A stretch of DNA of 64,000 nt, from the NCBI GenBank assembly GCA_964371245.1, contig CAYJKP010000001.1, positions 443,042-507,041 on the forward strand, given 5' to 3'. This DNA comes from an uncultured Gammaproteobacteria bacterium (GTDB taxonomy: Bacteria; Patescibacteriota; Patescibacteriia; JAHIZJ01). Made by a program: the position numbers and the translations under genes. The notes under the pieces are model-generated. The model did no database searches. It had not been told where the DNA came from and was given only the letters and a program-made list of their open reading frames with translations. Of this stretch, positions 7,721 to 60,394 are shown one piece after another (the stretch's first letter is position 1; each line of letters opens with the position of its first letter).

Positions 7721-7750
7721 GCGCTGTTTTACTAATGGTATGATATCAAT

Positions 7751-11000: not shown

Positions 11001-11001
11001 C

Positions 11002-12538: not shown

Positions 12539-12565
12539 ATCCCGTTATATATTTTTTCTACGCAT

Positions 12566-20042: not shown

Positions 20043-20052
20043 TTGATTGTTT

Positions 20053-45402: not shown

Positions 45403-45407
45403 GGTGA

Positions 45408-45929: not shown

Positions 45930-46737
45930 TGATTATCGTTTGCGGGATAATAACCGAGATAATTTGGAGATGGTCAAACCTGATCGGGGACGTAACGACG
46001 GCACTCTGAAATATGTCGCCTGGATTTATGGCCGTAGCGCTGATCGTCCCGATCACAATCCCCTGCGGTATATTCGATTCCAACCCCGAGGTAATAACAA
46101 TCTGATCGCGCGTGATAATTTCATTTTGCGGAATAAGTTGCATTTCAAGCGAGAGGCCATGTTGTCCGATGACAATGCCGGGCGCATTCGTATCGTTCTG
46201 AACGGTTGCGGCAACTTCACTTTGACGGTCGATGATGAGTCGTACTTTTGAGATTGAATCGCGTGATTCAATGACCTTGCCGATTAAATAGCCGTTTTGT
46301 GAAATAACGGCATACCCCTCGTTTATACCGTTATTTGTACCGATATTTATCAGTATTTCTTCCGTCATCGAATCACTGGTACGCCCGATGATTCGCGAAA
46401 CAACCCCGTGATACCCCTTGTTTTTTAGAAATTCTTCTTCTTGGCGCGTAATCGTGAGTTCGCGTATTTCTGAATCTAAAAGACTTTTTTCTTGGATCAA
46501 TTTGTCGCGCTCAGCGCGCAAGCTTTCATTTTCCTTCTGGAGATCGTTAAACGCCTCCCTCTTCTCAAGATATTTGTGAATCGTGCTCGAAAAGATAAAC
46601 GTATTGCCCTGGATCGGTTTCAAAATAACGGTCACGAGGTCTGTCAGCGGGTTAAAAACACCGCTTGTTCGAAATAAAAAAACAACCATCAGAGCCAGAA
46701 TAATAATACCGCCGATAAGCGTATATCTTTTTTTCAT
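45922..46737 (-). CDS. mreC: rod shape-determining protein MreC
   Basis: An N-terminal TM helix, a coiled coil and beta domains in the conserved position. Confidence 0.8.
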   Translation of the reverse strand: MKKRYTLIGGIIILALMVVFLFRTSGVFNPLTDLVTVILKPIQGNTFIFSSTIHKYLEKREAFNDLQKENESLRAERDKLIQEKSLLDSEIRELTITRQEEEFLKNKGYHGVVSRIIGRTSDSMTEEILINIGTNNGINEGYAVISQNGYLIGKVIESRDSISKVRLIIDRQSEVAATVQNDTNAPGIVIGQHGLSLEMQLIPQNEIITRDQIVITSGLESNIPQGIVIGTISATAINPGDIFQSAVVTSPIRFDHLQIISVIIPQTIIND

Positions 46738-46742
46738 GGGTT

Positions 46743-47795
46743 CTATTCCTCGTGAGTAGACAACGAGAGAATGCCTTTGAGGTTATCAAGATCCTCGAGC
46801 ACGATGCCGGTGCCCCGAACAAGGCAGGTCAAGGGATCATCGGCAATATGAACGGGTATTTGTGTTTCGTGTTGGATGACACGGTCGAGCCCCCGCAGCA
46901 GCGCGCCGCCACCGGTTAATACCAAGCCGCGCTCGAAGATATCGGCCACCAATTCCGGCGGCGTTGATTCGATAGTGTCTTTGATATTTTCGATTATCAT
47001 TCGAATTGAGCGCTGGATCGCTTCCTGAACATGATAGCTATTGATTGTAACCTCGCGCGGCAAACCGGACAACAGATCGCGACCGCGCATTTTTGTTTCG
47101 AGCGGTTCGGTGATATCGCCAACCATGGCAACCTTTATTTTTACATTTTCGGCCGTTTGTTCGCCCAAGAGCAAATTAAAGTTTTCGCGCGCATACTGAA
47201 TGATATTTTGGTCCAATTCGTCGCCAGCGATTCTGAGCGATCGCCAGGTGATAACACCACCTAACGAAATAACGGCTATTTCCGTCGTGCCCCCGCCGAT
47301 ATCGACGATCATGTTTCCGGAAGCGTCTTGAATCGGTAACCGCGCCCCTATCGCCGCCGCCATCGGTTCTTCAATCAGAAAAACTTGACGCGCCCCGGCG
47401 TTCAGTGTGGCATCTTCAACGGCTTTCAATTCCACTTCGGTTATCCCTTGGGGCACCCCGATAACAATTCTCGGTCGCGGCACCACCGTGTAGGTTTCAC
47501 GATGTACTTTTTCAATAAAATGTCTGAGCATCCGTTCGGTAATTTCAAAGTCGGAAATTACTCCATGTATCAGCGCTTTGCTGGCTACAATATGAGCGGG
47601 CGTCTTCCCCACCATCCGGCGCGCTTCTTCACCGACCGCGACAATTTGATCAGTGCGCGTGTTAATCGCGACAATTGATGGCTCATTAATCACAATCCCC
47701 TTGTCTTTTATGTAGACAAGCGTATTCGAGGTACCCAAATCAATTCCCATGTCTTTTGAGAAGCGTCCAAAAAAGCGATTGAAGATATTGATCAT
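46743..47795 (-). CDS. mreB: actin-like rod shape protein MreB (with an N-terminal amphipathic extension)
   Basis: Carries GIDLGTSNT and is 350 aa. Confidence 0.9.
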   Translation of the reverse strand: MINIFNRFFGRFSKDMGIDLGTSNTLVYIKDKGIVINEPSIVAINTRTDQIVAVGEEARRMVGKTPAHIVASKALIHGVISDFEITERMLRHFIEKVHRETYTVVPRPRIVIGVPQGITEVELKAVEDATLNAGARQVFLIEEPMAAAIGARLPIQDASGNMIVDIGGGTTEIAVISLGGVITWRSLRIAGDELDQNIIQYARENFNLLLGEQTAENVKIKVAMVGDITEPLETKMRGRDLLSGLPREVTINSYHVQEAIQRSIRMIIENIKDTIESTPPELVADIFERGLVLTGGGALLRGLDRVIQHETQIPVHIADDPLTCLVRGTGIVLEDLDNLKGILSLSTHEE

Positions 47796-48033: not shown

Positions 48034-49143
48034 TTAGCCAAAAATATTTTTTATAAATCCGAATATGTTGTCTTTGAAACGATTGAGATCGCGCAAGGTA
48101 ATTAACACAATCAGCAACATCAACACGGTAAACCCGACATTATGAATCATCGCCTCAACGCGTCGATTAATTTGCTTGCCGCGTATTTTTTCAATCACGA
48201 CGAAGAGCACGCGCCCGCCATCGAGCGCCGGGAACGGGATAAAATTAATAATCGCGAGATTCAACGATAACAGCGCGGTAAATTGGATCAAGTAGGCAAA
48301 GCCTAATTGTGCGACCTGACCTGTTAAGACCGCTATTCCGATCGGTCCTGAGACATCGGCGCCAGTGGGTTGTCCAGTCAGCCAATTGCGAATTAATTGA
48401 TAAAACGCTACCAATATTACCCAAATAATTTCAAAGGTGGTTTTTACGCCGCGCCAAATCGCATCATACCAAGGATATGAGATAATGCCTGTTTCAACCA
48501 ACGTGGCGCCCATTTTACCTTCACCGGTGGCATCAAGGTTTTCAAGCGTTATGGTAACGGTTTTTTCCTTGTTCAAATGTTTATAGGTCAGCGTCTCGGC
48601 TGAGCCGACTTTGTCGCGGTTGTAATTTTGTACTTGGTCGACTGTCGTGATCGTCACGTTATCGATCTTAACGATTTGATCGCCCGAGACAAGTCCGGCT
48701 TTTTCGGCGGGTGTGTTTTTGGCCACTTCAATAATTTGAACCTTTTGATCTCGTATTTTGGCCGTGCCCATATTATCACCGAGCGTACTTGGTAAACCAA
48801 CGCCGAAACCGATCGAAAATAAAACCATCGCCAACACGACATTCATCGTTACGCCAGCGGACAGCATAAATATGCGTTGCCATACTTTTTTCGAGGCAAA
48901 GCTTTTCTGGTCGTTTGGATCGGCACCGTCCTCGCCCTTTATCTTCACGAAGCCGCCGACGGGAATCCAATTCAGTGAGTACAGCGTATCTTTTTTCTTA
49001 ATGCCAATAATTTTCGGCGGCAAGCCGAAGCCAAATTCTTCTACGGCGGCGCCCATTCTTCGTGCTGCTAAAAAATGACCTAATTCATGAACAAACACGA
49101 TCAGCCCAAGGATAACGACAAATGTGATAATGGTTACAACCAT
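48034..49143 (-). CDS. rseP: RIP metalloprotease RseP (site-2 protease)
   Basis: The HELGH zinc site, a PDZ domain and a polytopic membrane topology are present. Confidence 0.85.
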   Translation of the reverse strand: MVVTIITFVVILGLIVFVHELGHFLAARRMGAAVEEFGFGLPPKIIGIKKKDTLYSLNWIPVGGFVKIKGEDGADPNDQKSFASKKVWQRIFMLSAGVTMNVVLAMVLFSIGFGVGLPSTLGDNMGTAKIRDQKVQIIEVAKNTPAEKAGLVSGDQIVKIDNVTITTVDQVQNYNRDKVGSAETLTYKHLNKEKTVTITLENLDATGEGKMGATLVETGIISYPWYDAIWRGVKTTFEIIWVILVAFYQLIRNWLTGQPTGADVSGPIGIAVLTGQVAQLGFAYLIQFTALLSLNLAIINFIPFPALDGGRVLFVVIEKIRGKQINRRVEAMIHNVGFTVLMLLIVLITLRDLNRFKDNIFGFIKNIFG

Positions 49144-49145
49144 AG

Positions 49146-49694
49146 TTAGACGGTAGTTATTTCTTTTTCCTTGTCAGCGGCGACGGCAGAGAGCGCCTCA
49201 ATCGCCGTATCGATTTCATTCTGAAGCTCTTTTTGTCTATTGAAGAGTTGATCTTCAGATATTGTGCCGGCTTCTTTATCCTTCTTGTTCATTTTATTGT
49301 GCTCTTCGCGCGTTTGGCGGATGCGTACTTTGTATTTCTCAGCAATCTCGTGTACTTTTTTCACCATGGCTAAACGCCGTTCTTCGGTCATTTGCGGGAT
49401 AATAATCCGCAACACATTCCCGTCGCTCGTCGGACTGGCACCGAGATTTGCTTTTTGCAATGCTTGTTCAACATCTTTGAACGCGTTTTTATCCCAGGGT
49501 TGAATAACTAAGGTTTGGGCATCGCTCACGGTAACGCTCGCCAGTTGCTTCAACGCGGTTGGCGTACCATAATAGTTGACCATGACATTTTCGACCAGCC
49601 CGGGGTGAGCCCGACCCAGCCTGAGGGCGGACATTTCCTCATGAAAATATCGCTGTGTTAATTCGAGCTCTTCGGTTAGATTATTGGTGCCCAT
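49146..49694 (-). CDS. frr: ribosome recycling factor
   Basis: 182 aa with conserved RRF sequence. Confidence 0.9.
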   Translation of the reverse strand: MGTNNLTEELELTQRYFHEEMSALRLGRAHPGLVENVMVNYYGTPTALKQLASVTVSDAQTLVIQPWDKNAFKDVEQALQKANLGASPTSDGNVLRIIIPQMTEERRLAMVKKVHEIAEKYKVRIRQTREEHNKMNKKDKEAGTISEDQLFNRQKELQNEIDTAIEALSAVAADKEKEITTV

Positions 49695-50758
49695 TATTTC
49701 GATTGAATAGTAAAGACGCCGGCGTAGAGTATCTCCGGCTGGGTCGGATGGATAAGCAATTGATTAATTCTCCGTTTTGAAGGCAAGGTTCGAAGCGTTG
49801 ACCAATTAAAACCGCCATCGTCTGAACGGTACAGCACTGATTGATCAGTGTGATAGATTTGATTTGAGTTCAGGGGGTTAATAGCGACGAGATTTATTGG
49901 CGTATTAAAATTCAAGAGCGTTTTCATGGCTTCCCAGCTCAGGCCCTCGTCATTGCTTTTAAGTAAACCATAATCGGTGGCGAGGTAGAGCGTTTGTGGT
50001 TTATTCGGATCGAAGACGATATCATGGATACTTTTTCCGTTTTTTCCAAATGACTTTAATGACTCTGCCTGCGGCGTCCAATTCTCTCCGCCATCGAGCG
50101 AAATATACAAACCAGCATCATCATTTACCGCCGCAAAAACGATCCGAGAATCCCGCGGACTCAGCCGCACGAGCGAAACCGCTTTCTTAAACCAGTAGAT
50201 TTTTTGCCAAGAATCGCCACCGTCATAGCTTTTAAAAATGCCACCGGCGTCATTCGTCACATAGATTCGTAACGGCTCAAACGGATCAACGACCACATTA
50301 TAGACGATGTCATCGGCTCGATCTTCGGTATAGACAATTTTCCAGTTTTCGCCACCGTCGCTGCTGCGATAAAGATTGCGTCCACTGGCAGCGTAGAGAG
50401 TGTTTGTATTTTTTGGATTTATGTCGAGACTGGTGATTTGATTTACGGCCAGCGAGAGTTTTTGCCACTGGTCGCCGCTATTGGCGGTTTTAAATAAACC
50501 GCTCCCGTTCGTGCCAGCATACAATATATCCGTATTTTGCGGATCGAAAATTAGCTTGCGCACGTCGACGTTACCGATGGTAATTGTCTTCTTTTTTAGA
50601 GTTTCAACGAATACCTTTTGTTCCCAACTTTCGCCCCGATTCGTTGAGCGAAAGACGCCTCCATCGGTAGTTGATTTTTTTGAACCGCATGACAATCCCA
50701 GCAAAAAAAGCATCGGCAGCAAAAGCAATAAAACTTTGGTACTTTTGTGATTGTTCAT
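49694..50758 (-). CDS. secreted BNR/Asp-box repeat protein (Ycf48/sortilin-like beta-propeller)
   Basis: At least five SxDxGxxW motifs, for example SSDGGENWK and SLDGGENWT. A signal peptide is present. Confidence 0.6.
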   Translation of the reverse strand: MNNHKSTKVLLLLLPMLFLLGLSCGSKKSTTDGGVFRSTNRGESWEQKVFVETLKKKTITIGNVDVRKLIFDPQNTDILYAGTNGSGLFKTANSGDQWQKLSLAVNQITSLDINPKNTNTLYAASGRNLYRSSDGGENWKIVYTEDRADDIVYNVVVDPFEPLRIYVTNDAGGIFKSYDGGDSWQKIYWFKKAVSLVRLSPRDSRIVFAAVNDDAGLYISLDGGENWTPQAESLKSFGKNGKSIHDIVFDPNKPQTLYLATDYGLLKSNDEGLSWEAMKTLLNFNTPINLVAINPLNSNQIYHTDQSVLYRSDDGGFNWSTLRTLPSKRRINQLLIHPTQPEILYAGVFTIQSK

Positions 50759-50760
50759 AC

Positions 50761-51816
50761 TTATAGCTGAAGAAAGAAATTTTCGAGCGCTAACCGTGGG
50801 TTTATATTAAAACGCAAACTTTTTTGAATCAGCTGCAGCTGCTTGACCAACCGGCTTAACACTTTCGGTGTATATGTTTTTTTCATCTGCACCAGCGAGT
50901 CTTGTGTAAAATAATTTACCGTAAACGGCACAAGCTGATAATGAAGCAAGATAATATCCCGTAAGACATTTTGCCAAACTCCGATCGTTGTACTCACCGT
51001 ATCAATCGATTCTTGATATGACGGACCAGCGGTGAGTTCGCCTAAATATGAGAATTTCGAAGGTAAATCAGCTTGAAGATATGAGAGAAAATCGTTGACC
51101 TGGGCTTTTCGCTCTTCGAGCAATTCCGGTATGTGGAGATACTGCCAGGCTAGACCCGGCCGGCCAGCTGAGAGTCGGGCGATCGCCAAGGCGCTGGTTC
51201 GATCAATAGACGGTTGTTCTTTTTGAATGAACGTAAGAACATCATCAGTCGAGACCGGCCGGAATTCTATCAGCTGACAGCGCGAGATAACGGTGCGCGG
51301 TAGATTTTCGAGTCGATTCGCAATCAGAATGATTAATGTGTTTTTTGTCGGCTCCTCAAGAGTTTTTAAAAGGCTATTCGCGGCATCGGTGCTTAAATAT
51401 TCAGCGCCATTGATTACGGCCACTTTATATGAATTGAAAAACGAACTGAGCTGAAGACGATGGATTATTTTTTCACGAATATCATCAATGCTGATATTTT
51501 TTTTATCAACTTCTTTCTCGAGTAAGGCAGCGTCCGGATGACTGCGGTTAACCAGCTTCTGGCAATTTTCGCAGATTCCGCAGGGCCGCGTCTCTTCATT
51601 CGTGCAAAAAAGCATTTGAATAAAAGTCTGGGCTGTGGCTGTCTTACCGAGATGCAAAGGGCCGTGAAATAAATACGCTGGCACAACATTTTGTGTGCTG
51701 ACGCATTGAGAAAGATACTTTATATTTTCCCGATGACCGATTATTGGCCAGGTTAATTTATACCCTTTTCTTTTTAACATCGTTGCTATTGTAACAGAAA
51801 GACCGCAAATAATCAA
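50761..51816 (-). CDS. holB: DNA polymerase III delta' subunit
   Basis: An AAA+ fold with a degenerate P-loop and a CGICENCQ zinc module. Confidence 0.75.
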   Translation of the reverse strand: MIICGLSVTIATMLKRKGYKLTWPIIGHRENIKYLSQCVSTQNVVPAYLFHGPLHLGKTATAQTFIQMLFCTNEETRPCGICENCQKLVNRSHPDAALLEKEVDKKNISIDDIREKIIHRLQLSSFFNSYKVAVINGAEYLSTDAANSLLKTLEEPTKNTLIILIANRLENLPRTVISRCQLIEFRPVSTDDVLTFIQKEQPSIDRTSALAIARLSAGRPGLAWQYLHIPELLEERKAQVNDFLSYLQADLPSKFSYLGELTAGPSYQESIDTVSTTIGVWQNVLRDIILLHYQLVPFTVNYFTQDSLVQMKKTYTPKVLSRLVKQLQLIQKSLRFNINPRLALENFFLQL

Positions 51817-51819
51817 GTC

Positions 51820-53016
51820 TCATGATGTCCCGGTTATAACCGCAAGGGTTTTCTTGGCACATTCATCCCAGCGAAAATGATGTATCCTGGAGAAGCCCCG
51901 CTGTTGCAGGTTATGGCGGTAGTCCTGATCAGTCGCCAGTCGCTTTAAAATAGCGGCAAGTTCGTCAGGGCGTTCGGTCTCAAATAGTTCCGCGGCATCG
52001 CCAGCTACTTCCGGTATTGAGGCAGCACGGCTGGCTACGACTGGTGACCCACACGCCATTGCCTCAAGAAGCGGCAAGCCAAATCCTTCATAAAATGAAG
52101 GAAAAACAAAGGCAGTCGCCTTATTTAACAAGGCAACGAGCGACTCCGGCTGGAGATAGCCAGGCATGATGATGGCCGAGGCAAGATTGCTTTTCAGGAT
52201 TTCATTTCGTACTTCATCAAAACCATATCCGGGCTGACCGGCTAAAATCATTACGTGCGGTAGTTTCGTCTCATTTTTAAAGATTGAGAACGCCTTGATT
52301 AATCCGGCCGTATTCTTCTTCTTCTCCAGCCGACCGACATACAGAAAATATGGCGCCGTAATTTTCAAACGATCCAACTCGTTCTGAATTATTGACGTGT
52401 CAGTGATCGGATGATAAATGTTCTGGTCGACGCCGTGATAGATTACCTGGATGCGTTTTTCGGGTATGCCGTAGACATCGATAACTTCATTCTTCGTAAA
52501 ACTCGACGGGACAATAATCTGGGTAGCTTTTGTAATCGCGGTTCGCATCGCCCAACGATGATAATCGAGCTCGCTTGAACCGTAGCGACCTCTCGTAAAT
52601 ATCCTGGTACCAGCCGATAATATTTTCTTCCCCAGGCGCCGCCCACCGATTGCTTCCTTTGAATAGAGCCCATGAAGCCGTTCAAAACCGATGTCATGGA
52701 CGGTTAAAACGGTTCTTTTGCTTTTAATGAGAGGGAGCGTGTGAGCCGGCACGAAGAGCACGTCAACGGGTTTTACGGCCAGCCGGAGTGAGAGACGAAT
52801 TTGAGTCCAAAGAAATTTTGGCGGCCAGCGTAATACTTGCGAATGAAAATTTGTTGGCAGATTTTGATATTCCGAGCGCAATTTTTCCTTGGTATACAAA
52901 AAATACTGATCGTTCGGGTCAGCAATTTTGCAAAATTCTTTAATCAGCCAATACGAATACCATTCGGTTCCGGTTTTGTTTTCGACATTGGCGCGCGAGG
53001 CGTCAATACCAATCTT
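51820..53016 (-). CDS. glycosyltransferase family 1 (GT4-type)
   Basis: Carries FVFPSFYEGFGLPLLEAMACGSPVVAS. The ATG at 53016 (MKIGID...) was preferred over the ORF-track start at 53076. Confidence 0.75.
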   Translation of the reverse strand, partial: KIGIDASRANVENKTGTEWYSYWLIKEFCKIADPNDQYFLYTKEKLRSEYQNLPTNFHSQVLRWPPKFLWTQIRLSLRLAVKPVDVLFVPAHTLPLIKSKRTVLTVHDIGFERLHGLYSKEAIGGRRLGKKILSAGTRIFTRGRYGSSELDYHRWAMRTAITKATQIIVPSSFTKNEVIDVYGIPEKRIQVIYHGVDQNIYHPITDTSIIQNELDRLKITAPYFLYVGRLEKKKNTAGLIKAFSIFKNETKLPHVMILAGQPGYGFDEVRNEILKSNLASAIIMPGYLQPESLVALLNKATAFVFPSFYEGFGLPLLEAMACGSPVVASRAASIPEVAGDAAELFETERPDELAAILKRLATDQDYRHNLQQRGFSRIHHFRWDECAKKTLAVITGTS

Positions 53017-53038
53017 CATAAGGTACGCGCTAAAGGAA

Positions 53039-54046
53039 TTACTTTGTATACAAGATACTGCGCTTGTATGACTCAAGATTCTCTAAGGCAATGCCAGTTC
53101 CGCGAGCAACGCACAGGAGTGCTTCATCAGCGACATACGACGGCACCCCGGTGGCCTGAGCCAATAATTGATCGAGGTTCCGCAACAGCGCCGTACCGCC
53201 GCTCAAGACCATGCCTTTGTCGATGACATCAGCCGCTAACTCAGGTGGTGTTTCTTGTAAAACGGATTTTACCGCTTGAACGATACTAGCAAGTTCGTCC
53301 TGGATCGCTTCCGTGATATCATCCGAGGAAACCGTGATGGTTTTTGGTAGACCAGTGATCATGTCGCGTCCCCGGATGTCCATTGACATGCGCTCTTCCA
53401 TCGGTAAGGCCGAACCGATCGTAATCTTCAGTTCCTCGGCGCTTCGATCACCAATCGCCAAACCGTATTTACGACGGGTGTAATCTGTGATGGCGGCGTC
53501 GAGTCGATTGCCGCCAATCCGGACCGAGGTGCTCGCGACAATGCCGCCGAGCGAAATCACGGCAATTTCTGAGGTACCGCCGCCAAGATCGATGATCATA
53601 TGGCCGGATGCGGAACCAATCGGTATATTTGCTCCGATCGCCGCGGCGATCGGTTCTTTGATGATAAAGGCGGCTTTCGCGCCAGCTTGCAGAGTGGCAT
53701 CAATGACAGCGCGTCGTTCGGTCGACGTGATGCCGGCCGGTACTGAAACCATTACCTCGGGTCTGAAAAAATGCACCCCGCCGAGCGCCTTATTTATAAA
53801 ATACCGCAGCATGCTCTCCGTTGTCCGATAATCGGCAATGACGCCATCGCGCAGCGGTCGCGAGGCCGTGATCGTATCAGGCGTCCGACCGAGCATCTCT
53901 TTCGCTTCCTCGCCCACCGCAAGCACCTTTTTATCGGCAATGGAAATTGCCACGACCGATGGTTCATTGATAATAATGCCTCGTTTCGGTATGTAAACGA
54001 GCGTATTCGCAGTGCCGAGATCTATACCAATTTTTTTGACAAACAT
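53039..54046 (-). CDS. second MreB-family actin-like protein, lacking the N-terminal amphipathic extension
   Basis: Carries GIDLGTANT. It is about 55-60% identical by eye to the mreB gene at 46743-47795. Confidence 0.8.
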   Translation of the reverse strand: MFVKKIGIDLGTANTLVYIPKRGIIINEPSVVAISIADKKVLAVGEEAKEMLGRTPDTITASRPLRDGVIADYRTTESMLRYFINKALGGVHFFRPEVMVSVPAGITSTERRAVIDATLQAGAKAAFIIKEPIAAAIGANIPIGSASGHMIIDLGGGTSEIAVISLGGIVASTSVRIGGNRLDAAITDYTRRKYGLAIGDRSAEELKITIGSALPMEERMSMDIRGRDMITGLPKTITVSSDDITEAIQDELASIVQAVKSVLQETPPELAADVIDKGMVLSGGTALLRNLDQLLAQATGVPSYVADEALLCVARGTGIALENLESYKRSILYTK

Positions 54047-54049
54047 AGA

Positions 54050-56020
54050 CTAACGAAAGGTTACTTCGACGCTTCGATCGCGTTGCAGATCAGTATTTAA
54101 CGTCATGCTAGTATCATCTGTTTTTTTGATTTTGTCAATAGGATCAGCCGTAAATATCTTTTGGTCGAACGCAAACGACAAGGACAGTGGGTATGATCGA
54201 GTACCAGGCTGTTTCTGAAAGTTCAAGACGTATTTATTTCCGTCTGTTTGATTGATGATTGAGTCGGGCAAACGATACCGATAATGGATGGTGCCCTCGT
54301 CACCAGGTTCGATCGAGATAAACCCGCCAAAAACTGTCTTGCCAAGCTCTTCGGTGACGTCTGGATCGGTTGGTTTACCGTTGTGGAGCTTGTCATTCGT
54401 CATCGGACCCGAGGACTCGATGAGCGTGCTCCCTTTTGGTACATAGACCCTGGTATACGTGCGATAGCGTGTTGTTTTCCAATCAATGCTCCCCTTGTTT
54501 GAATATTGTATCGTCAGGTCGCCAATCAAACCGTCGTTTGTTTGTTCAACGCGGTACGTGACCGAGCGATCAACAATTCGATCGGTTTTTAAGGCTGCCA
54601 TATTGGCATCAACGAACATGACGTAGTCTGTGTTTTCTTCTTGGGACACTGCCCCACCCCAGTTCTCCCGCGCGATGACGGTTTGCAATGATTCATCCTT
54701 TGAATAAAACATCAATTGTTTTTCCTCGATATGATTCATGATCACCTGCCACAATTCGCCCCAGCGCGATTGCGGAAAGTTCAACAGCCGATCCATCAAC
54801 TGCTGCGACATCACACCGATAATCTCCTTCCGCTCAGCATCAGATATGCCCTGCCGATAGAAACCCTGTTCGACTTGATATTGCATTGTCTCAACAAAAT
54901 TATCAGGTGTGAATTTTACGCCGTTCACGGTAATGTCGCCCGTCAATCGGATTAACGATTCGATAAAGTTCGGAGTCACGGCCACGACGCCATCGATATG
55001 TTTTTCCGGTCCGTTTTCCTGCTGGTAAAACCAGAGTGCTTTTTGAGCCGAGGTCGGAAAGTCCGGCGACCAGTTGCTGTCGCGCATAAACCATTTCTCG
55101 GCCGCCAAATATTTCTGGAGTGGTTCTGGCGGCGTTGCAATCAATGTGTTTTGGAATGGGTTGTCGAGATTGTAGATATTGTCCGTTTTAAAATATGATA
55201 TCTCCGCATCTTTAATCTTCAAAATACCGTAGGTACCGATAAAACCACCAGCCGGGCGTAGCTCGGTATTGTTCTCCAATAAAAAGAGATAGGTTTTTCC
55301 GTTCGGATAGCCGGCGATCGGTGGCAGCAGTTCCGCCGCCGGTAATGCCTGGGCGATTGATTTCTTTATACTCGGTAGTTGGTCTTTGATCGGCTGGATC
55401 ATTTTTTTAATCGTTGGGTAGATACCATGATCAGGTATCTGTTCCATGCTCAGAACGGCTAAATCTATTTCCGCTTTTACACCAACCAGGTCTGGATACG
55501 CTTCAGATATTTTTTGCAAAATAACATGCTTTTGCTCCGGCTTCAGCTTCGCCAGGCTGAATTCAGCATCGGTTTTTACCGGCGTGATTATTTCATCGGC
55601 GAGATAGGCAATTTTTGACAAGGCTGAGGCTGTTTGCGTGCCCGCCTTTAAAATATTATCAACGGCCGAGAGCTGCGTTTTGACATACGGGATCGAACGC
55701 AAGCCGCCCATTTTTTCGATTTCCTGCTGAGCCAAGGCTAATTCCTTTTGGGCGGTTACGAGCGTATCACCAGCCTCGCGAAAATGTTCGTCCGTCACCG
55801 CCTGTTGGGCGGTGGTAAAACTATTTTTTCCGTTTTTGGCATGCGCCACCAGACTGCGCATCGGGTTCAAATATTTTATAGCGAAAATTGCCAGAATAAT
55901 TATAATTATTCCAAGCGGTATGCCAATACCAAGAAGCCATGGCTTCGCTTTTTGTTTCCAGTTTTTTTTGCCTCTCTGAAACATTTTCGATTGCGCTTGA
56001 TTTGGTGTAAGATTGATCAT
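54050..56020 (-). CDS. N-terminally anchored extracytoplasmic protein, DUF4012-like
   Basis: One TM helix. The motif LFLLENNTELRPAGGFIGTYG resembles the DUF4012 ELRPxGGFIG signature. 656 aa. Confidence 0.5.
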   Translation of the reverse strand: MINLTPNQAQSKMFQRGKKNWKQKAKPWLLGIGIPLGIIIIILAIFAIKYLNPMRSLVAHAKNGKNSFTTAQQAVTDEHFREAGDTLVTAQKELALAQQEIEKMGGLRSIPYVKTQLSAVDNILKAGTQTASALSKIAYLADEIITPVKTDAEFSLAKLKPEQKHVILQKISEAYPDLVGVKAEIDLAVLSMEQIPDHGIYPTIKKMIQPIKDQLPSIKKSIAQALPAAELLPPIAGYPNGKTYLFLLENNTELRPAGGFIGTYGILKIKDAEISYFKTDNIYNLDNPFQNTLIATPPEPLQKYLAAEKWFMRDSNWSPDFPTSAQKALWFYQQENGPEKHIDGVVAVTPNFIESLIRLTGDITVNGVKFTPDNFVETMQYQVEQGFYRQGISDAERKEIIGVMSQQLMDRLLNFPQSRWGELWQVIMNHIEEKQLMFYSKDESLQTVIARENWGGAVSQEENTDYVMFVDANMAALKTDRIVDRSVTYRVEQTNDGLIGDLTIQYSNKGSIDWKTTRYRTYTRVYVPKGSTLIESSGPMTNDKLHNGKPTDPDVTEELGKTVFGGFISIEPGDEGTIHYRYRLPDSIINQTDGNKYVLNFQKQPGTRSYPLSLSFAFDQKIFTADPIDKIKKTDDTSMTLNTDLQRDRSVEVTFR

Positions 56021-56833
56021 TTAATCCTTTATAATTGGTTCTTTCGTTCCAAAATATTTAGCAAAATATTTTATAGCACTGGTAATATGAATGCGCGTCG
56101 CGTAGCTAAAAACTCCTTTTATGCCAGGATTCACAGCTGAGATGCGTTGATGATAATGGACCATTTCGGCGTCAGCCACGTAATACACTTGGTAGCCTGA
56201 TTGCCAAAACCGGCGACACCAATCAACGTCTTCCAGATACAGGAAAAAGCGTTCGTCTAGCAATCCGACTTTTTTCATGGCATCCGTTCTGGCAAAAAAA
56301 CATGCCCCAATCATCCAGTCAACAGCGCGATTATGAGAATGATCAAAATCGAGCATTAGATGACGACGGAGTTTTTGGCGCGGTCCGTGTAACCGTCCAA
56401 GGGGCGTCCGGCGATAGAGTAACAACGTTTGCCAGGAGGGAAAGGTGCGGCACGACGCCTGTGTTGTGCCGTCGGGATTGATCAGTTTCGGGCCAATCAG
56501 GCCAACGGTCGGGTGTTCCTCCATGAAACGATACATGACATCGAGCGAATTATTCATGATCGAGACGTCAGGATTGAGAATCATGATATATTTTCCCGTC
56601 GCTTGTTTTATCCCGAGATTATTACCAGCCGCGTAACCACAATTCACGGCCGATTCGATAATTTTAACGCTTGGAAATTCCTCCCTGATCATTTCCACGG
56701 TGCCGTCGTGCGAGGAATTATCGACAACAATGATCTCATAATCAATTTTTGGATTAAGTAATTGCAGTCCTTTTAAGCACTGCTTCGTTAATCCCTTCGT
56801 CTTATAATTGAGAATGATGATTGAGAGATCCAT
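56021..56833 (-). CDS. glycosyltransferase family 2
   Basis: Carries DLSIIILNYKT...YEIIVVDNSSHDGT. Confidence 0.8.
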   Translation of the reverse strand: MDLSIIILNYKTKGLTKQCLKGLQLLNPKIDYEIIVVDNSSHDGTVEMIREEFPSVKIIESAVNCGYAAGNNLGIKQATGKYIMILNPDVSIMNNSLDVMYRFMEEHPTVGLIGPKLINPDGTTQASCRTFPSWQTLLLYRRTPLGRLHGPRQKLRRHLMLDFDHSHNRAVDWMIGACFFARTDAMKKVGLLDERFFLYLEDVDWCRRFWQSGYQVYYVADAEMVHYHQRISAVNPGIKGVFSYATRIHITSAIKYFAKYFGTKEPIIKD

Positions 56834-56834
56834 G

Positions 56835-57881
56835 TTAGTAAAACCATTGACGCAGATCGTGGTCGCTGATGATTCGGCGACTGAGAATTTCCCGACGCTG
56901 GCGCAATAATGCTGGTAAGCGACGCCAAATTTGGAATGATTGTATTATTGTACGTGGCTCAAAAATTATGAGATAGAAAAATTTTTTTATTTCATAGCCA
57001 ATCAGCCAGGGCGCGTCACGGACGATGTTCGCGAACGATTCATTCTTTATTATTGTCGCCAGATGATTCCGATATGACCATTGATTCATAAGTGTTGATT
57101 TCGTTCGGCGGTGGAGTATTTGCTTAACGGTGCTGGCGGCGGCCGCGCTTTGGGCCGAACGCCGGTGCCAAGCAATGGCTTTTGGGACATACCGACTTTT
57201 CCAGCCGCGCAATTTCAATCGCCAGGCCAAATCAAAATCTTCTTGATACATGAAGTAACTCTCGTCAAAATACTGTCCCTTCGACAACCGGACATCTTCG
57301 AGCGCCTGCGTATTAAAAAGTACCAAGGCTCCACTGATCCCAAACACGTCGTTGCTCGTATCATACTGTCCGGTATCCTTTTCGCCCTCTCCCCGATCGA
57401 CAATTCGTCTATTTTTAAAACACATGAAACCAGTGCTGTCAAGCATATCAGATTTTTGCATGCTCTTCAAGTCAGGGTTTAATTTATACAATTTTCCACC
57501 AATCGAGGCAATTCTCTTGTCAGACTCAATGTGCGAAAACACCTCCATCAAGTAATTTTCATCTAGTCGAATATCAGGATTTGCCACGAGCACATATGGC
57601 GCGCGCGCTTCGCGAATGCCCTGATTATGCGCTTTGCCGTACCCTTCATTCACGTGATTCTTGATGATTTTTACGTTCGGCCGACATTGCTCAAGATACT
57701 GGCACGTGGTATCAACTGAAGCGTTATCGACGACAATTACTTCAAAGTCCGTAAATGTCTGATTTTCTAATGACTCAAAAAAGTTCGGCAAATCGGAAGC
57801 CGAATTATACGTGACCAGACTAATGCTGAGCCGCGGCAAGCTGGTTTTCGGATTGATAATTTCCATGTCGAAGCTGTTCAA
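56835..57881 (-). CDS. glycosyltransferase family 2
   Basis: Carries LSISLVTYNS...FEVIVVDNASVDTT. The ORF-track start overlaps the upstream Wzy-like gene; an internal ATG may be the true start. Confidence 0.75.
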   Translation of the reverse strand: MNSFDMEIINPKTSLPRLSISLVTYNSASDLPNFFESLENQTFTDFEVIVVDNASVDTTCQYLEQCRPNVKIIKNHVNEGYGKAHNQGIREARAPYVLVANPDIRLDENYLMEVFSHIESDKRIASIGGKLYKLNPDLKSMQKSDMLDSTGFMCFKNRRIVDRGEGEKDTGQYDTSNDVFGISGALVLFNTQALEDVRLSKGQYFDESYFMYQEDFDLAWRLKLRGWKSRYVPKAIAWHRRSAQSAAAASTVKQILHRRTKSTLMNQWSYRNHLATIIKNESFANIVRDAPWLIGYEIKKFFYLIIFEPRTIIQSFQIWRRLPALLRQRREILSRRIISDHDLRQWFY

Positions 57882-59361
57882 ATATTACGGCGCATGTCAT
57901 GATGAAACCGAGACCGAGCGGATGATTAAGATAAGGCGTAGTCGCGTGCGTAATGAGCAGCGACGTCAACGCGAGAAGCAAACCAAGAATAAACATTTTT
58001 TCACCATTTTCGTTTTTTCGATAGGCCTGAATGCCATTTTTGAATATCTGATAAAGAAATAGGGCGTAGATAACAAGTCCAATCAGACCGAGTTTTAAGG
58101 CCAGGTCAAGATACCCCCATTCAAACGAATACGTCTTATACAAACCCCCGGTCGTGGCGACGACGCGCGGATCCTTTGATACGTATGTCACCTCACTGCC
58201 AAAACCCTGACCAAGAAACGGCGATTTCCATATTTCTTGCCCAAGCGGTTTGATAAGATTCCAGCGGCTCTGCAGGGCAACTTCATTCGTATCACCAAGT
58301 CGATCTTCAACCAGACTTGATAAGCTGACACCACCGCCGTGAGCCTTCAACCATTGCGGCGCGTTGACGAGAAGGTAGATACAACCAATTTCGACAATAA
58401 AGATTCCAATCATGATGGCTCCGAGCGCGATGATATTCTTGAATCGATAATTATAGCGTTGGATCAATGCTACTGTCACGAATATCAGGGTGACAGCAAA
58501 AGACAACCAGAGGCTTCTCGAGTAACTGATGAGTATCGTGGTCGTTGCCATAATATAGAGTATTATTAACGCTCGGTGTTTTTTTATGCCTTCGCGCCTG
58601 ACCGCAACAGCCAAAACTACTAAGACCAATATGGCTCCGAAGAGACTGAATATATGACTCTGCGAGAAAACGCGATAGAAATTGTGACTAATGAGCGTTA
58701 TTTCATTGACGCGCGTATCGCGAACCCAGCGGTAAAGCGACGGCAGGAACGAGACCTGTGAAGCGAAGAGTAAAAGCAAGACAAGAGTTTTTACAGCCAC
58801 CGCCGTCAGGCCGGCCAGTATAACCTCAATGGCAGTCGCGATCTTTTTTCGATCGATCATTACTTCATAGAATACAAATATCAAACCAAGGTATAAAAAT
58901 CCGTTGACATCAAGAAAAATATTTTTTGATGGATGATGGCGGATCAGGCCGTTCGCTATCCCCCAACCGAGCGCCCCTAAGAATATGACATACCACCAAA
59001 ATAATTTTGATTTAAAAAACTGTACCTTGCGTTTTAGCAGACGGGTGAGCAGCCAAACCGCGATCACCACGCAAAACAGCCCCAAGCGTATTGAAACTGA
59101 AAACGATCCAACGTTGCTGGAAAACAGGTACCCTTTTGATCCAACCACTAGTTCCGCAATGACAATCCAGAGCGCGATATCGAGTCGCCAAAACGCAACG
59201 AGTCCTGTCACGCCGAGTATCACCCAAAACGCTATTTTGCCAACCAGCGGCCAGCTCCAACCGGCCAGACTCAACACCTCAATACAAGCGATGGCCAGCA
59301 CAATGTACCAGAAGGTTTTTGTAATTCGAATGGTGCTCATCGATGAAATGGCTGGATACAT
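57820..59361 (-). CDS. polytopic membrane protein, O-antigen ligase / Wzy-like polymerase family
   Basis: About 12 TM helices. A periplasmic loop carries GQGFGSEV...SFEWGYLDLALKLG. Confidence 0.55.
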   Translation of the reverse strand: MYPAISSMSTIRITKTFWYIVLAIACIEVLSLAGWSWPLVGKIAFWVILGVTGLVAFWRLDIALWIVIAELVVGSKGYLFSSNVGSFSVSIRLGLFCVVIAVWLLTRLLKRKVQFFKSKLFWWYVIFLGALGWGIANGLIRHHPSKNIFLDVNGFLYLGLIFVFYEVMIDRKKIATAIEVILAGLTAVAVKTLVLLLLFASQVSFLPSLYRWVRDTRVNEITLISHNFYRVFSQSHIFSLFGAILVLVVLAVAVRREGIKKHRALIILYIMATTTILISYSRSLWLSFAVTLIFVTVALIQRYNYRFKNIIALGAIMIGIFIVEIGCIYLLVNAPQWLKAHGGGVSLSSLVEDRLGDTNEVALQSRWNLIKPLGQEIWKSPFLGQGFGSEVTYVSKDPRVVATTGGLYKTYSFEWGYLDLALKLGLIGLVIYALFLYQIFKNGIQAYRKNENGEKMFILGLLLALTSLLITHATTPYLNHPLGLGFIMTCAVIFEQLRHGNYQSENQLAAAQH

Positions 59362-60245
59362 AGGCTCACAACAAGGCTTGGCACAAGACTCCAGGGATAA
59401 AGGAGTAGAACGGACAGACGCTCGAGCGCCGTACCATGTTTTTTATAATATTTTAACAGGCTATTATTGAGGCGCGCCTGTTTCCGTAGGCTCATTACCT
59501 GTCGAAAGCTTTGACCATAGAAATGGATTATTTCAGCATCAGCATAATACCACGTTTCCAAACCGGCCTTTTTTGCCATCCGGCAATAATCAACCTCCTC
59601 AAACCAAATGAAATAGCGCTCGTCCAGATTGCCAAGGCGCTTTCGGGTTTCTGGCGCGATCATGAAAAACGCACCCATGACTTGGTCTACCTTCTGACTT
59701 TTACTGAAATCAAAATTTGGCAGAAGATACTTTTTTAAAGGTTTCGCCCAAGGAAATATCCGATGAAGCTTTAATAAGATGAGGGCCATGGCGGCCAGTG
59801 ACGGAAAACTTCGAACTGATTCCTGGTTCGTACCATCAGGATTTTTTATTCGACAGCCAACGATTGCTGCCTGATGATTATCGTTCATCCAGGCGTACGT
59901 TTTTTCGATCGCCCGATCGACAATAATTGTGTCAGGATTTAATAGGAGCGTATATTCACCCCGGGCAATCTCAAGACCCTGATTGTTGGCTTTCGCAAAA
60001 CCATCATTTGTCTTGTTACTGATCAGTCGTACTTGAGGAAATATTTTTTTGACCATCTCAGCTGAACCATCATGCGATGCATTGTCGATGACAATCACTT
60101 CAAAACGGATGTTTTTTGTTTGTTCAAAAATTGAGCTTATGCATTGTCGCAAAAGCTCTCGGACGTTCCACGATACGACTATTACACTAACATCATATTC
60201 GCTCGGCATATTTCCAGTTAAAACACACCTGCAGTATACCGTCAA
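59337..60245 (-). CDS. glycosyltransferase family 2
   Basis: Carries VSVIVVSWNV...FEVIVIDNASHDGS. Confidence 0.8.
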   Translation of the reverse strand: MTVYCRCVLTGNMPSEYDVSVIVVSWNVRELLRQCISSIFEQTKNIRFEVIVIDNASHDGSAEMVKKIFPQVRLISNKTNDGFAKANNQGLEIARGEYTLLLNPDTIIVDRAIEKTYAWMNDNHQAAIVGCRIKNPDGTNQESVRSFPSLAAMALILLKLHRIFPWAKPLKKYLLPNFDFSKSQKVDQVMGAFFMIAPETRKRLGNLDERYFIWFEEVDYCRMAKKAGLETWYYADAEIIHFYGQSFRQVMSLRKQARLNNSLLKYYKKHGTALERLSVLLLYPWSLVPSLVVSLCIQPFHR

Positions 60246-60332
60246 ATGTCGAGAATGTAAAAAAGGACGGTATTTGGCCGTGGCTTCTTAAGACGATAAA
60301 TCCGCGATTTTTTTTATTCCCATAGAATGAAT

Positions 60333-60355
60333 AAAAAAACGGGTTTTTCCCGTTT
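60333..60355 (-). terminator. terminator-like hairpin AACGGG-TTTTT-CCCGTT with an A7 run upstream (T-run on the minus strand)
   Basis: A perfect 6-bp stem. It is unexpectedly located inside a divergent intergenic region. Confidence 0.35.
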
Positions 60356-60394
60356 AAGTTATCCCCAGAAATGAAGAGTTTAAAGGTATCACGT

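What the first reader, a model, noticed from the sequence alone, without database searches (positions are those of the whole stretch)
51820..60245. MreB paralog embedded in a co-directional glycan-assembly operon (GT4, MreB2, DUF4012-like, two GT2, Wzy-like, GT2)
The window has the canonical mrdA-mreD-mreC-mreB elongasome operon at 43450-47795. It also has a second MreB-family gene at 53039-54046, wedged between a GT4 and a DUF4012-like anchored protein. Three GT2 genes and a Wzy-like polymerase continue on the same strand with gaps of 25 nt or less. MreB2 lacks the N-terminal amphipathic extension MINIFNRFFGRFSKD seen in MreB1. An actin-like filament dedicated to positioning a surface polysaccharide or glycoconjugate assembly machine would be an undescribed arrangement.
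Basis: partly seen in the sequence, partly recalled or inferred. Interest (0 to 1): 0.62.

Follow-up and report, generated by a model that had tools for sequence, protein, structure and literature searches.

The report
Second MreB wired to surface-glycan genes
This uncultivated Patescibacteria (CPR) bacterium carries an intact second actin-like MreB gene that, across a whole class of relatives, sits right after a membrane-anchored protein of unknown function (DUF4012) inside surface-sugar assembly gene clusters; this hints at, but does not prove, a cytoskeleton-guided wall-sugar machine.

Summary
On the minus strand lie GT2c, a Wzy_C-type membrane protein, GT2b, GT2a, DUF4012, MreB2 and GT4, with gaps of 19 nt or less. 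The same tight string runs on into holB, a BNR protein, frr and rseP, then mreB1-mreC-mreD-mrdA. MreB2 is a bona fide MreB. It keeps the catalytic and nucleotide-binding residues and has a Thermotoga-type hydrophobic membrane loop in place of MreB1's N-terminal helix. It evolves more slowly than MreB1 in 34 of 34 genomes. In 160 related loci the DUF4012-MreB2 pair is adjacent in 77-88% of cases, tested from both sides. The pair sits in Wzx/Wzy, synthase-type and other glycan clusters, and occasionally alone. Two caveats apply. Functionally unrelated neighbours (holB-BNR-frr-rseP) are just as syntenic. In four more distant MreB2-type lineages the gene lies next to murA or holB-frr-rseP-mreB1 (two), an orthologous GT4 (one) or peptidoglycan genes (one), never next to DUF4012. 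My best reading, at about 45% confidence, is an MreB2 filament that organises wall-glycopolymer assembly with DUF4012, much as Bacillus MreB associates with teichoic-acid enzymes. Two CPR MreB clades were already published; the DUF4012/glycan link appears undescribed. I rate it a new variant of a known kind, of moderate interest.

The parts
59337..60245 (-). GT2c, a soluble family-2 glycosyltransferase and first gene of the string. The likely true start is the ATG at 60209.
   Evidence: Pfam Glycos_transf_2, E 2.5e-28. Partial match to the rhamnosyltransferase model, below cut-off. Promoter-like site just upstream.
60233..60261 (-). Promoter-like site, TTTACA-17-TATACT, in the divergent intergenic region.
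   Evidence: Consensus scan with 10 of 12 matches and sequence reading. This is a prediction only.
57820..59361 (-). Wzy_C / O-antigen-ligase-family polytopic membrane protein (polymerase or ligase type).
   Evidence: Pfam Wzy_C, 35.7 bits against a cut-off of 31.7. Orthologues at the same position in relatives.
56835..57881 (-). GT2b glycosyltransferase.
   Evidence: Pfam Glycos_transf_2, E 2.8e-23. GT2b is followed by GT2a in 80% of relatives.
56021..56833 (-). GT2a glycosyltransferase.
   Evidence: Pfam Glycos_transf_2, E 2.4e-21. GT2a is followed by DUF4012 in 73% of relatives.
54050..56020 (-). DUF4012 protein. It has a short basic cytoplasmic tail, one transmembrane helix, a long extracytoplasmic helical stalk (about residues 21-235), an alpha/beta core and a C-terminal beta-sandwich.
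   Evidence: Pfam PF13196, 110 bits. AF2 models with pLDDT 86 and 90. No solved homologue by fold or by sequence. Tail motif [ND][FL][LIVA]xP.
53039..54046 (-). MreB2, a second-class MreB actin-like ATPase with a hydrophobic membrane loop.
   Evidence: Pfam MreB_Mbl, 452 bits. NCBIfam MreB models above their cut-offs. 56% identical to Geobacillus MreB. Motif checks.
51820..53019 (-). GT4 glycosyltransferase and the conserved downstream neighbour of MreB2.
   Evidence: Pfam Glycos_transf_1 and Glyco_transf_4. MreB2 is followed by GT4 in 59% of relatives. An orthologous GT4 also follows a distant MreB2-type gene.
48034..51816 (-). holB, a BNR/sortilin-like lipoprotein, frr and rseP. These housekeeping genes continue the same tight string and are probably co-transcribed.
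   Evidence: Pfam and gaps of 0-3 nt. Adjacencies are 88-93% conserved.
43450..47795 (-). mreB1-mreC-mreD-mrdA, the canonical elongasome operon. MreB1 has an N-terminal amphipathic helix.
   Evidence: Pfam and NCBIfam. MreB1 is followed by MreC in 100% of relatives. N-termini shown.
20047..21540 (+). Displaced cluster member: a roughly 500-aa integral-membrane GT2 synthase with TED and QxxRW motifs. In many relatives it lies directly upstream of GT2b-GT2a-DUF4012-MreB2.
   Evidence: 48% identical to L062:4189-5694. Found upstream of MreB2 in 41 of 96 loci. Pfam Glyco_trans_2_3.

Best explanation
Shown:
- MreB2 is a functional-looking member of an old, Patescibacteria-specific second class of MreB.
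- It is tightly packed, and probably co-transcribed, with a DUF4012 protein upstream and a GT4 downstream, inside a surface-glycan assembly cluster.
- This triad is conserved across one whole class-level radiation of Patescibacteria, while the surrounding glycan genes are swapped between Wzx/Wzy, membrane-synthase and priming-transferase types.

Inferred:
- MreB2 polymerises on the inner face of the membrane through its hydrophobic loop. There it acts as the cytoplasmic organiser of a wall- or surface-glycopolymer pathway, recruiting the peripheral GT4/GT2 enzymes.
- It is coupled across the membrane to the bitopic DUF4012 protein, whose large, residue-conserved outside domain handles the glycan.
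- Glycopolymer would thus be laid down along the cell cylinder in step with the peptidoglycan elongation run by MreB1-MreC-MreD-PBP2, which is encoded a few genes downstream.

This is the same logic as the MreB/Mbl/MreBH association with teichoic-acid enzymes and LCP ligases in Bacillus subtilis. The difference is that here a separate paralogue is genetically fixed to the pathway.
For: MreB2 looks functional:
- It scores above the curated MreB cut-offs.
- The equivalents of catalytic E143 and T170 are conserved in 73/79 and 79/79 orthologues, and the phosphate loops are intact (residue roles from PMC4051119).
- Its membrane loop aligns with T. maritima L93/F94 (PMC3163269).
- It is more conserved than MreB1 in 34 of 34 genomes (79% against 65% identity to the window copy). 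The two clades are each monophyletic.

Linkage to DUF4012 and glycan genes:
- DUF4012 is followed by MreB2 in 50 of 57 MreB2-anchored loci and in 48 of 62 DUF4012-anchored loci.
- The median gap between them is 17.5 nt, and it is 13 nt or less in 24 of 50.
- Glycan genes lie within three genes upstream of 68 of 73 adjacent pairs.
- Cluster types A, B and C differ in glycan content but all keep MreB2 and DUF4012.
- Where the glycan block and the holB block are separated, MreB2 stays with the glycan genes in 18 loci (plus 7 of the Komeili type), against 3-4 with holB only.
- The pair occurs as an isolated bicistron in L131 and behind MacB transporter genes in L118, L139 and L140.
- An orthologous GT4 follows a 47%-identical MreB2-type gene in a distant lineage.

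DUF4012 and wall context:
- DUF4012 sits in a Bifidobacterium EPS cluster (PMC5412050) and is enriched in CPR and Gram-positive bacteria (PMC6744442).
- It has many invariant polar residues and a conserved motif in its cytoplasmic tail.
- A TagA/WecG-family gene in the window points to a wall-linked polymer pathway.
- In the related class ABY1, dTDP-rhamnose genes have been suggested to feed rhamnose wall polysaccharides (PMC11809585). I did not establish that this window belongs to that class.
Against: - Gene order is very conserved in this clade regardless of function. holB-BNR, BNR-frr and frr-rseP are adjacent in 88-93% of loci, the same as DUF4012-MreB2.
- In two distant MreB2-type lineages the gene lies in murA-mreB2-holB-frr-rseP-mreB1 with no glycan genes. 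In a third it lies among mur/ddl genes. The deepest linkage is therefore to cell-wall and housekeeping genes.
- Some lineages keep SynGT2-GT2b-GT2a-DUF4012 with dnaE instead of mreB2 downstream.
- The tail motif is also present in DUF4012 proteins that are not next to MreB2.
- There is no interaction, localisation or transcript evidence.
- The window cluster contains no priming transferase, flippase or LCP ligase.
Confidence: 0.45

Rival explanations
1. Inherited synteny. MreB2 is simply a second general elongasome filament. It either partners MreB1 or forms a parallel filament with a different membrane anchor. It sits beside glycan genes only because the whole cell-envelope/housekeeping neighbourhood is frozen in these small genomes.
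For: - Unrelated neighbours are equally syntenic.
- Distant MreB2-type genes lie in murA-mreB2-holB-frr-rseP-mreB1 without glycan genes.
- L033 has murA-mreB2-GT4-holB.
- In Komeilibacteria mreB2 directly follows mreB1CD-mrdA-greA.
- Both paralogues score equally well as canonical MreB.
- Bacillus paralogues co-polymerise laterally on membranes in vitro, according to the title of PMC7641798 as listed.
Against: - When the blocks separate, MreB2 goes with DUF4012 and the glycan genes far more often than with holB.
- The DUF4012-MreB2 pair survives in new contexts, including as an isolated bicistron.
- The inter-protofilament position (E. coli V121) is Thr in 78 of 79 MreB2 but Val in all MreB1 and outgroups. 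This argues for separate rather than mixed filaments.
- There are 24 MreB2-specific conserved positions.
Confidence: 0.35
2. MreB2 and DUF4012 form a two-protein envelope module whose substrate is not a polysaccharide. Examples would be positioning an export or adhesion apparatus, or remodelling peptidoglycan. On this reading the glycosyltransferases are neighbours, not partners.
For: - The pair occurs without any glycosyltransferase nearby in L118, L131 and L139, twice behind HlyD/MacB-type transporter genes.
- MacB-type genes also flank the window cluster.
- DUF4012 has no known fold or activity.
Against: - 68 of 73 pairs have glycan genes directly upstream.
- DUF4012 lies in a polysaccharide cluster in Bifidobacterium, which is the only literature context found (PMC5412050).
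Confidence: 0.12
3. MreB2 is a decaying or non-polymerising pseudo-paralogue.
For: It lacks the N-terminal helix. It also has clade-specific changes next to the catalytic Glu (E142K) and in the GGG adenosine motif (SGGT).
Against: - It is the slower-evolving paralogue in 34 of 34 genomes.
- All catalytic and phosphate-binding residues are kept.
- From my own knowledge, SGGT-type motifs are normal in actin and Hsp70.
- It has a Thermotoga-type membrane loop.
Confidence: 0.02

Closest known systems
B. subtilis MreB/Mbl/MreBH association with wall teichoic acid enzymes and LCP ligases (TagTUV), and the Streptomyces spore-wall synthesising complex with PdtA
   Same: An MreB filament is linked to the attachment or synthesis of a wall glycopolymer in a single-membrane bacterium, coordinated with peptidoglycan synthesis (PMC7831098, PMC11481543). 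Several MreB paralogues coexist, and only one of them lies in the mreBCD operon.
   Different: In those systems the link was found through protein interactions, and as far as I know the genes are not clustered. Here one paralogue class is embedded in the glycan gene cluster next to a DUF4012 protein. No LCP gene is in the cluster, and nothing has been tested experimentally.
Two CPR MreB clades (Takahashi et al., bioRxiv 10.1101/2020.05.13.095042)
   Same: That work reports that CPR MreBs split into two clades, with some species holding both, and suggests different roles. This matches the MreB1 and MreB2 clades seen here.
   Different: The passages I read mention no gene-neighbourhood link, no DUF4012 or glycan link, and no analysis of the two membrane-binding modes. 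I did not show that their clades are identical to mine.
MreB-RodZ / MreB-MreC type coupling through a bitopic membrane protein
   Same: DUF4012 has a short cytoplasmic tail, one transmembrane helix and a large outside domain. It is encoded immediately upstream of an MreB, like the adaptors that connect MreB to outside enzymes.
   Different: There is no homology to RodZ or MreC. The cytoplasmic part is only 8-42 residues with one short motif, and binding is untested.
DUF4012 in Gram-positive EPS/CPS clusters (Bifidobacterium longum 105-A)
   Same: It is the same Pfam family and sits in a polysaccharide cluster beside the priming transferase and Wzz (PMC5412050).
   Different: From my own knowledge, Bifidobacterium has no MreB, so that cluster has no actin partner. 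The function is unknown in both cases.
T. maritima MreB (membrane insertion loop) versus E. coli MreB (N-terminal amphipathic helix)
   Same: MreB2 carries the loop type and MreB1 the helix type (PMC3163269).
   Different: Both devices occur in one genome, one on each of two paralogues. Membrane binding is inferred from sequence only.

Membership tests
MreB (PF06723 / TIGR00904 / NF010539) | Profile score above the curated cut-off | tested here: met
   MreB2 scores: Pfam 452 bits (cut-off 27), NF010539 468.8 (cut-off 293), TIGR00904 462.1 (cut-off 365.75). MreB1 scores are similar.
MreB (PF06723 / TIGR00904 / NF010539) | Actin-fold nucleotide-binding motifs and the catalytic Glu/Thr (C. crescentus MreB E140/T167, equal to E. 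coli MreB E143/T170) | tested here: met
   DLGT, DxGGGT and EP..AAAIGA are present. Glu is kept in 73/79 (Gln in 6) and Thr in 79/79 MreB2 orthologues (PMC4051119).
MreB (PF06723 / TIGR00904 / NF010539) | Direct membrane-binding element (N-terminal amphipathic helix or hydrophobic loop) | tested here: met
   This is at sequence level only. The MreB2 loop GG[VM][RHK][LF]F aligns with T. maritima GGMNLF (L93/F94). MreB1 has an E. coli-like N-terminal helix (PMC3163269).
MreB (PF06723 / TIGR00904 / NF010539) | Forms antiparallel double protofilaments | not testable with these tools
   The intra-protofilament position (S284 equivalent) is Ala, as in Geobacillus. The inter-protofilament position V121 is Thr in 78 of 79 MreB2. 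Polymerisation itself was not assayed.
Canonical elongasome MreB (mreBCD operon member) | Encoded with mreC and mreD | tested here: not met
   MreB2 is flanked by DUF4012 and GT4. MreB1 is the copy followed by mreC in 32 of 32 loci.
MreBH (NF010540) | Score above the exception-model cut-off of 515 bits | tested here: not met
   384 bits for MreB2 and 399 bits for MreB1.
DUF4012 (PF13196) | Profile score above the gathering threshold | tested here: met
   110.1 bits against 28. 1338 homologues, with those listed named DUF4012.
Wzx/Wzy-dependent polysaccharide pathway | A Wzy-type polymerase, a Wzx flippase and a priming phosphoglycosyl transferase together in the locus | tested here: not met
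   The window cluster has a Wzy_C protein but no Wzx and no priming enzyme. Relatives do have Wzx (Polysacc_synt) upstream, and the Komeili type has a Bac_transf gene.
Synthase-dependent polysaccharide pathway | A membrane-embedded processive GT2 with TED and QxxRW motifs in the locus | tested here: inconclusive
   Such a gene is adjacent in 41 of 96 relatives. In this window it lies 36 kb away on the other strand, at 20047-21540.
Bacillus-type MreB-glycopolymer coupling | Physical association of MreB with wall-polymer enzymes or LCP ligases | not testable with these tools
   Only genomic linkage was measured. None of the window ORFs I scanned against Pfam matched an LCP family (four longer ORFs had no Pfam match at all). 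A TagA/WecG-family gene is present at 29224-29967.
Single operon GT2c to rseP | Co-transcription | tested here: inconclusive
   Gaps are 19 nt or less or overlapping, there are no intergenic terminator-like sites, and one promoter-like site lies upstream. No transcript data were available.

The most novel reading that the evidence does not exclude
DUF4012 and MreB2 form a previously unrecognised two-part machine. A dedicated actin-like filament, separate from the elongasome filament, is tied through the short motif-bearing tail of a bitopic protein to an extracytoplasmic enzyme of novel fold. That enzyme processes or attaches a surface polysaccharide. This would be a bacterial counterpart of cytoskeleton-guided polysaccharide deposition, and it would assign a first function to DUF4012, a family also present in Gram-positive bacteria.
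Probability: 0.3. Interest if true: 0.8.

Novelty: new variant of a known kind. Interest (0 to 1): 0.5.

Why it matters
If the link is functional, it would show that bacteria can devote a separate MreB paralogue to laying down a secondary wall polymer. It would also give a first handle on DUF4012, a widespread family of unknown function in CPR and Gram-positive bacteria. And it would offer a concrete, testable picture of how the envelope of ultra-small, uncultivated Patescibacteria is built, since that envelope is the interface with their hosts. The two paralogues carry the two known MreB membrane anchors, which makes them a natural experiment on why those anchors differ. If the link is only inherited synteny, the finding is still useful as a warning. 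In these genomes adjacency is conserved at about 90% even between unrelated genes, so guilt-by-association needs stricter controls.

Tried and rejected
- Fold searches of the full DUF4012 model and of the ectodomain alone matched only generic beta-sandwiches: M1 aminopeptidase N-terminal domains, Ost1/ribophorin and ITIH1, all with TM-score of 0.29 or less. Nothing matched the alpha/beta core.
- A profile search of DUF4012 against PDB sequences found nothing meaningful.
- PADLOC found no defence-system match.
- I looked for a DUF4012-MreB2 fusion as a Rosetta-stone clue. The 1010-aa top hit, P0241, turned out to be a Ser/Thr kinase with two tandem MreB domains and is unrelated.
- I tested whether the DUF4012 tail motif is lost when MreB2 is not adjacent. 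It is not, so the motif cannot yet be tied to MreB2.
- Unknown proteins next to distant MreB2-type genes are not diverged DUF4012 proteins.
- An Rfam scan of the upstream intergenic region found no known RNA.
- Co-folding MreB2 with the DUF4012 tail was not possible with the single-chain tool.
- The pseudo-paralogue idea was rejected on conservation grounds.
- An MreBH identity was rejected on score.

Full report
**What is in the window.** The region 51.8-60.2 kb carries seven genes, all on the minus strand. In transcription order they are GT2c, a Wzy_C-family membrane protein, GT2b, GT2a, a DUF4012 protein, MreB2 and a GT4. Every family assignment passes its Pfam threshold. DUF4012 scores 110 bits against a threshold of 28, and Wzy_C scores 35.7 against 31.7.

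- The second MreB (335 aa) scores as well as MreB1 (350 aa) on the Pfam and NCBIfam MreB models. Neither reaches the MreBH model cut-off. The two are 49% identical.
- Reading the junctions shows a 3-nt gap between DUF4012 and mreB2. The GT4 most likely starts at the ATG at 53019, 19 nt after the mreB2 stop, and independent gene calls on identical contigs agree.
- The string does not stop at the GT4. holB follows after 3 nt, then a BNR/sortilin-like protein, frr and rseP. After 238 nt come mreB1-mreC-mreD-mrdA, greA, tRNA synthetase genes, alr and ddl.
- No intergenic terminator-like hairpin lies between 60.2 and 48.0 kb. A promoter-like site sits just upstream of GT2c.

**The organism.** The exact MreB2 protein occurs on contigs of up to 1.18 Mb named Patescibacteria group bacterium. 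Close relatives are labelled Kerfeld-, Komeili-, Uhr-, Magasanik-, Falkow- and Buchananbacteria. NCBI places Kerfeld- and Uhrbacteria, the two I looked up, as separate candidate phyla of the Parcubacteria group. From my own knowledge these correspond to the GTDB class ABY1.

**Is MreB2 a working MreB?**
- Its best solved relatives are Geobacillus MreB (390 bits) and T. maritima MreB (349 bits). MreB1 gives almost the same scores.
- I aligned 79 MreB2 and 35 MreB1 orthologues with E. coli, Geobacillus and Thermotoga MreB. The phosphate-1 and phosphate-2 motifs are intact.
- The catalytic Glu is kept in 73 of 79 MreB2 (Gln in the other 6). The catalytic Thr is kept in 79 of 79. These correspond to C. 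crescentus MreB E140 and T167 (PMC4051119).
- The adenosine motif reads SGG[ST] instead of GGG. From my own knowledge this is the form found in actin and Hsp70.
- MreB2 lacks the N-terminal helix, but it has a GG-x-x-[LF]-F loop that aligns with the T. maritima L93/F94 membrane-insertion loop. MreB1 has an E. coli-type amphipathic N-terminus (PMC3163269). The two paralogues therefore carry the two known membrane anchors.
- MreB2 has 24 clade-specific conserved positions. One is Thr at the inter-protofilament position, where E. coli V121E abolishes double filaments. That position is Val in every MreB1 and outgroup (PMC4051119). I read this, speculatively, as a sign of separate filaments.
- Each paralogue clade is monophyletic in a neighbour-joining tree. 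Within a genome the two are about 47% identical, as far apart as either is from E. coli MreB. MreB2 is the more conserved copy in 34 of 34 genomes.

The pseudo-paralogue option is out.

**Conservation of the neighbourhood.** I fetched 80 species-representative loci anchored on MreB2, at 73-93% identity, and labelled their ORFs by similarity to the window proteins.
- The immediate upstream gene is DUF4012 in 50 of 74 loci and GT2a in 8.
- The immediate downstream gene is the GT4 in 42 of 71.
- A glycan gene lies within three genes in 69 of 78.

As a reciprocal test, 80 metagenome loci were anchored on DUF4012 alone, at 32-53% identity. MreB2 is immediately downstream in 48 of 62 non-redundant cases. 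The exceptions are followed by dnaE, ileS, an S41 protease, a Wzy_C protein or lepA.

**Cluster types.** The glycan context varies around a fixed core.
- Type A is Wzx-GT4-GT2c-Wzy-GT2b-GT2a-DUF4012-MreB2-GT4. The complete genome CP060223.1 has this form, while the window lacks the Wzx and the upstream GT4.
- Type B replaces the Wzx/Wzy part with a roughly 500-aa membrane GT2 carrying TED and QxxRW motifs. This gene is upstream of MreB2 in 41 of 96 loci. Its orthologue in this window sits 36 kb away at 20047-21540.
- Type C (Komeilibacteria) is mreB1CD-mrdA-greA-MreB2-GT4-Bac_transf-GT4-GT4-GT4-DUF4012.
- The DUF4012-MreB2 pair also occurs as an isolated two-gene unit between opposite-strand genes (L131). 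It also occurs behind HlyD/MacB transporter genes (L118, L139, L140).
- Where the glycan block and the holB block are apart, MreB2 stays with glycan genes in 18 loci (plus 7 of type C), against 3-4 with holB only.

A fixed DUF4012-MreB2 core with variable surroundings is the strongest argument for a functional tie.

**Why caution is needed.**
- First, gene order in this clade is conserved whatever the function. holB-BNR, BNR-frr and frr-rseP are adjacent in 93%, 91% and 88% of loci and mreB1-mreC in 100%, against 88% for DUF4012-MreB2 and 59% for MreB2-GT4.
- Second, I reached further out with the exhaustive representative search. Among the best 150 representatives, five of the 115 full-length ones carry the MreB2 signature (K5, P20, S108, T109, K130) at only 44-56% identity. 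They lie on low-GC, CPR-like contigs.
- I could read the neighbourhoods of four of these lineages:
  - murA-mreB2-holB-frr-rseP-mreB1, seen in two lineages;
  - mreB2-GT4-x-GT4-GT4, where the first GT4 is the orthologue of the window's GT4;
  - mreB2 among mur-ligase and ddl genes.
- None of the four has DUF4012 beside it.

The deepest linkage is therefore to murA, the holB-to-mreB1 block and the GT4. The DUF4012/GT2 link is a feature of the ABY1-type radiation.

**DUF4012.**
- The AF2 models are confident, with pLDDT 86 for the full length and 90 for residues 236-656.
- They show an N-terminal tail, one transmembrane helix, a long helical stalk, an alpha/beta core and a beta-sandwich.
- Only the beta-sandwich finds weak fold matches. 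The core finds none by fold, and the sequence profile finds no solved relative.
- Many polar residues are invariant among 54 homologues, including N250, N251, E253, D286, R313, R397, K398, D465, D471, D480, R518, R520 and R524. To me this suggests an enzyme or a specific binding site rather than a spacer.
- The cytoplasmic tails are 8-42 residues long, strongly basic and otherwise unalignable.
- Even so, 82 of 112 tails keep an [ND][FL][LIVA]xP motif near the N-terminus. Shuffled tails average 28.6 with a maximum of 42, although shared ancestry inflates the observed figure. The motif is also present where MreB2 is not adjacent, so it is only a candidate docking site.
- The literature holds only three open-access mentions of DUF4012. 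One places it in a Bifidobacterium EPS cluster, and one notes enrichment in CPR and Gram-positive bacteria.

**Mechanism and comparison with what is known.** The most economical model is that MreB2 filaments, anchored by the hydrophobic loop, organise the cytoplasmic steps of a wall- or surface-glycopolymer pathway and are tied to DUF4012 outside the membrane. This would run in parallel with the MreB1 elongasome encoded downstream. Several things are already known.
- MreB proteins associate with teichoic-acid enzymes and LCP ligases in B. subtilis, and with PdtA in the Streptomyces spore-wall complex.
- Two CPR MreB clades have been noted before.
- A TagA/WecG-family gene in the window and the suggestion of rhamnose wall polysaccharides in class ABY1 fit a wall-linked polymer.

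What seems new is the genetic fixing of one MreB class to DUF4012 and glycan clusters. No paper in the searchable library links them.

**Verdict.**
- Observation: confirmed.
- Glycan-organiser model: 0.45.
- Inherited synteny with a general elongasome role: 0.35.
- A DUF4012-MreB2 module with a non-glycan substrate: 0.12.
- Pseudo-paralogue: 0.02.
- Novelty: a new variant of a known kind.
- Interest: about 0.5.

Noticed in passing
window 20047-21540 (+), with 18133-20042 upstream: A 497-aa integral-membrane GT2 with TED and QRRW motifs, which are typical of processive synthases. It is the orthologue (48% identity) of the gene that sits directly upstream of GT2b-GT2a-DUF4012-MreB2 in 41 of 96 related loci. 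Here it is displaced 36 kb onto the other strand, directly after an ABC/MacB transporter pair.
   Followed up: partly
window 29224-29967 (+): A TagA/WecG/CpsF-family glycosyltransferase (Pfam E 6e-56). In Gram-positive bacteria this enzyme type makes the linkage unit of wall-attached polymers. It suggests that this organism anchors a secondary polymer to peptidoglycan.
   Followed up: no
window 2802-13696: A second surface-glycan neighbourhood. It holds another Wzy_C protein, three GT4s, a methyltransferase, an ASH/HYDIN-type Ig-domain protein, a GHL15 plus FG-GAP protein and a DUF11 protein. I counted at least 11 glycan-assembly genes in the 64 kb: three soluble GT2, one membrane GT2 synthase, four GT4, a TagA-family gene and two Wzy_C proteins.
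   Followed up: no
window 1-2800 and 6400-7600: Two islands of about 62% GC in a genome of about 45% GC. The first holds long overlapping ORFs with no Pfam match. One of them (19-1143) has an aromatic-rich C-terminus ending in Trp, which to my eye looks like an outer-membrane barrel. That would be odd for a single-membrane CPR cell. The islands could be foreign DNA, a mis-assembly or an unusual surface protein.
   Followed up: partly
window 60300-60420 (-): A structured intergenic stretch with a GC-rich hairpin plus a T-run, just upstream of the cluster's promoter-like site. The fold z-score is -3.4. There is no minus-strand gene before it and no Rfam family match. It could be a small RNA or a leader/attenuator.
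   Followed up: partly
window 49694-50758 (-) and orthologues in L001-L161: A BNR/sortilin-type beta-propeller protein with a signal or lipoprotein-like N-terminus is wedged between holB and frr. It keeps that position in about 91-93% of related loci, and I have no explanation for it. The frr-rseP adjacency looks like a remnant of the widespread frr-uppS-cdsA-rseP cluster with uppS and cdsA missing (from my own knowledge).
   Followed up: no
L174:22-8735 (JGI Ga0167658_1000527, 68% GC, not CPR-like): An MreB that is 61% identical to MreB2 but lacks the MreB2 signature. It heads a cluster of TagA/WecG, GT4, three GT87, PHP, LPG_synthase_TM and PMT_2 genes. L175 shows the same MreB-PHP-LPG_synthase_TM order. 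MreB genes at the head of glycan clusters may therefore not be confined to CPR.
   Followed up: partly
DUF4012 proteins P0121-P0240, N-terminal 8-42 residues (window 55940-56020): The otherwise unalignable, strongly basic cytoplasmic tails keep a short [ND][FL][LIVA]xP motif near the N-terminus. It is found in 82 of 112 tails, against a mean of 28.6 after shuffling. In the window protein it reads I-N-L-T-P.
   Followed up: partly
P0241 (1010 aa, from the representative library): A protein with an N-terminal Ser/Thr kinase domain followed by two tandem MreB domains. It is not related to this locus but has a curious architecture.
   Followed up: no
L094:9290-12838 (+): An isoleucyl/valyl-type class I tRNA synthetase (1182 aa) with a histidine-phosphatase (His_Phos_1) domain inserted in the catalytic domain.
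   Followed up: no
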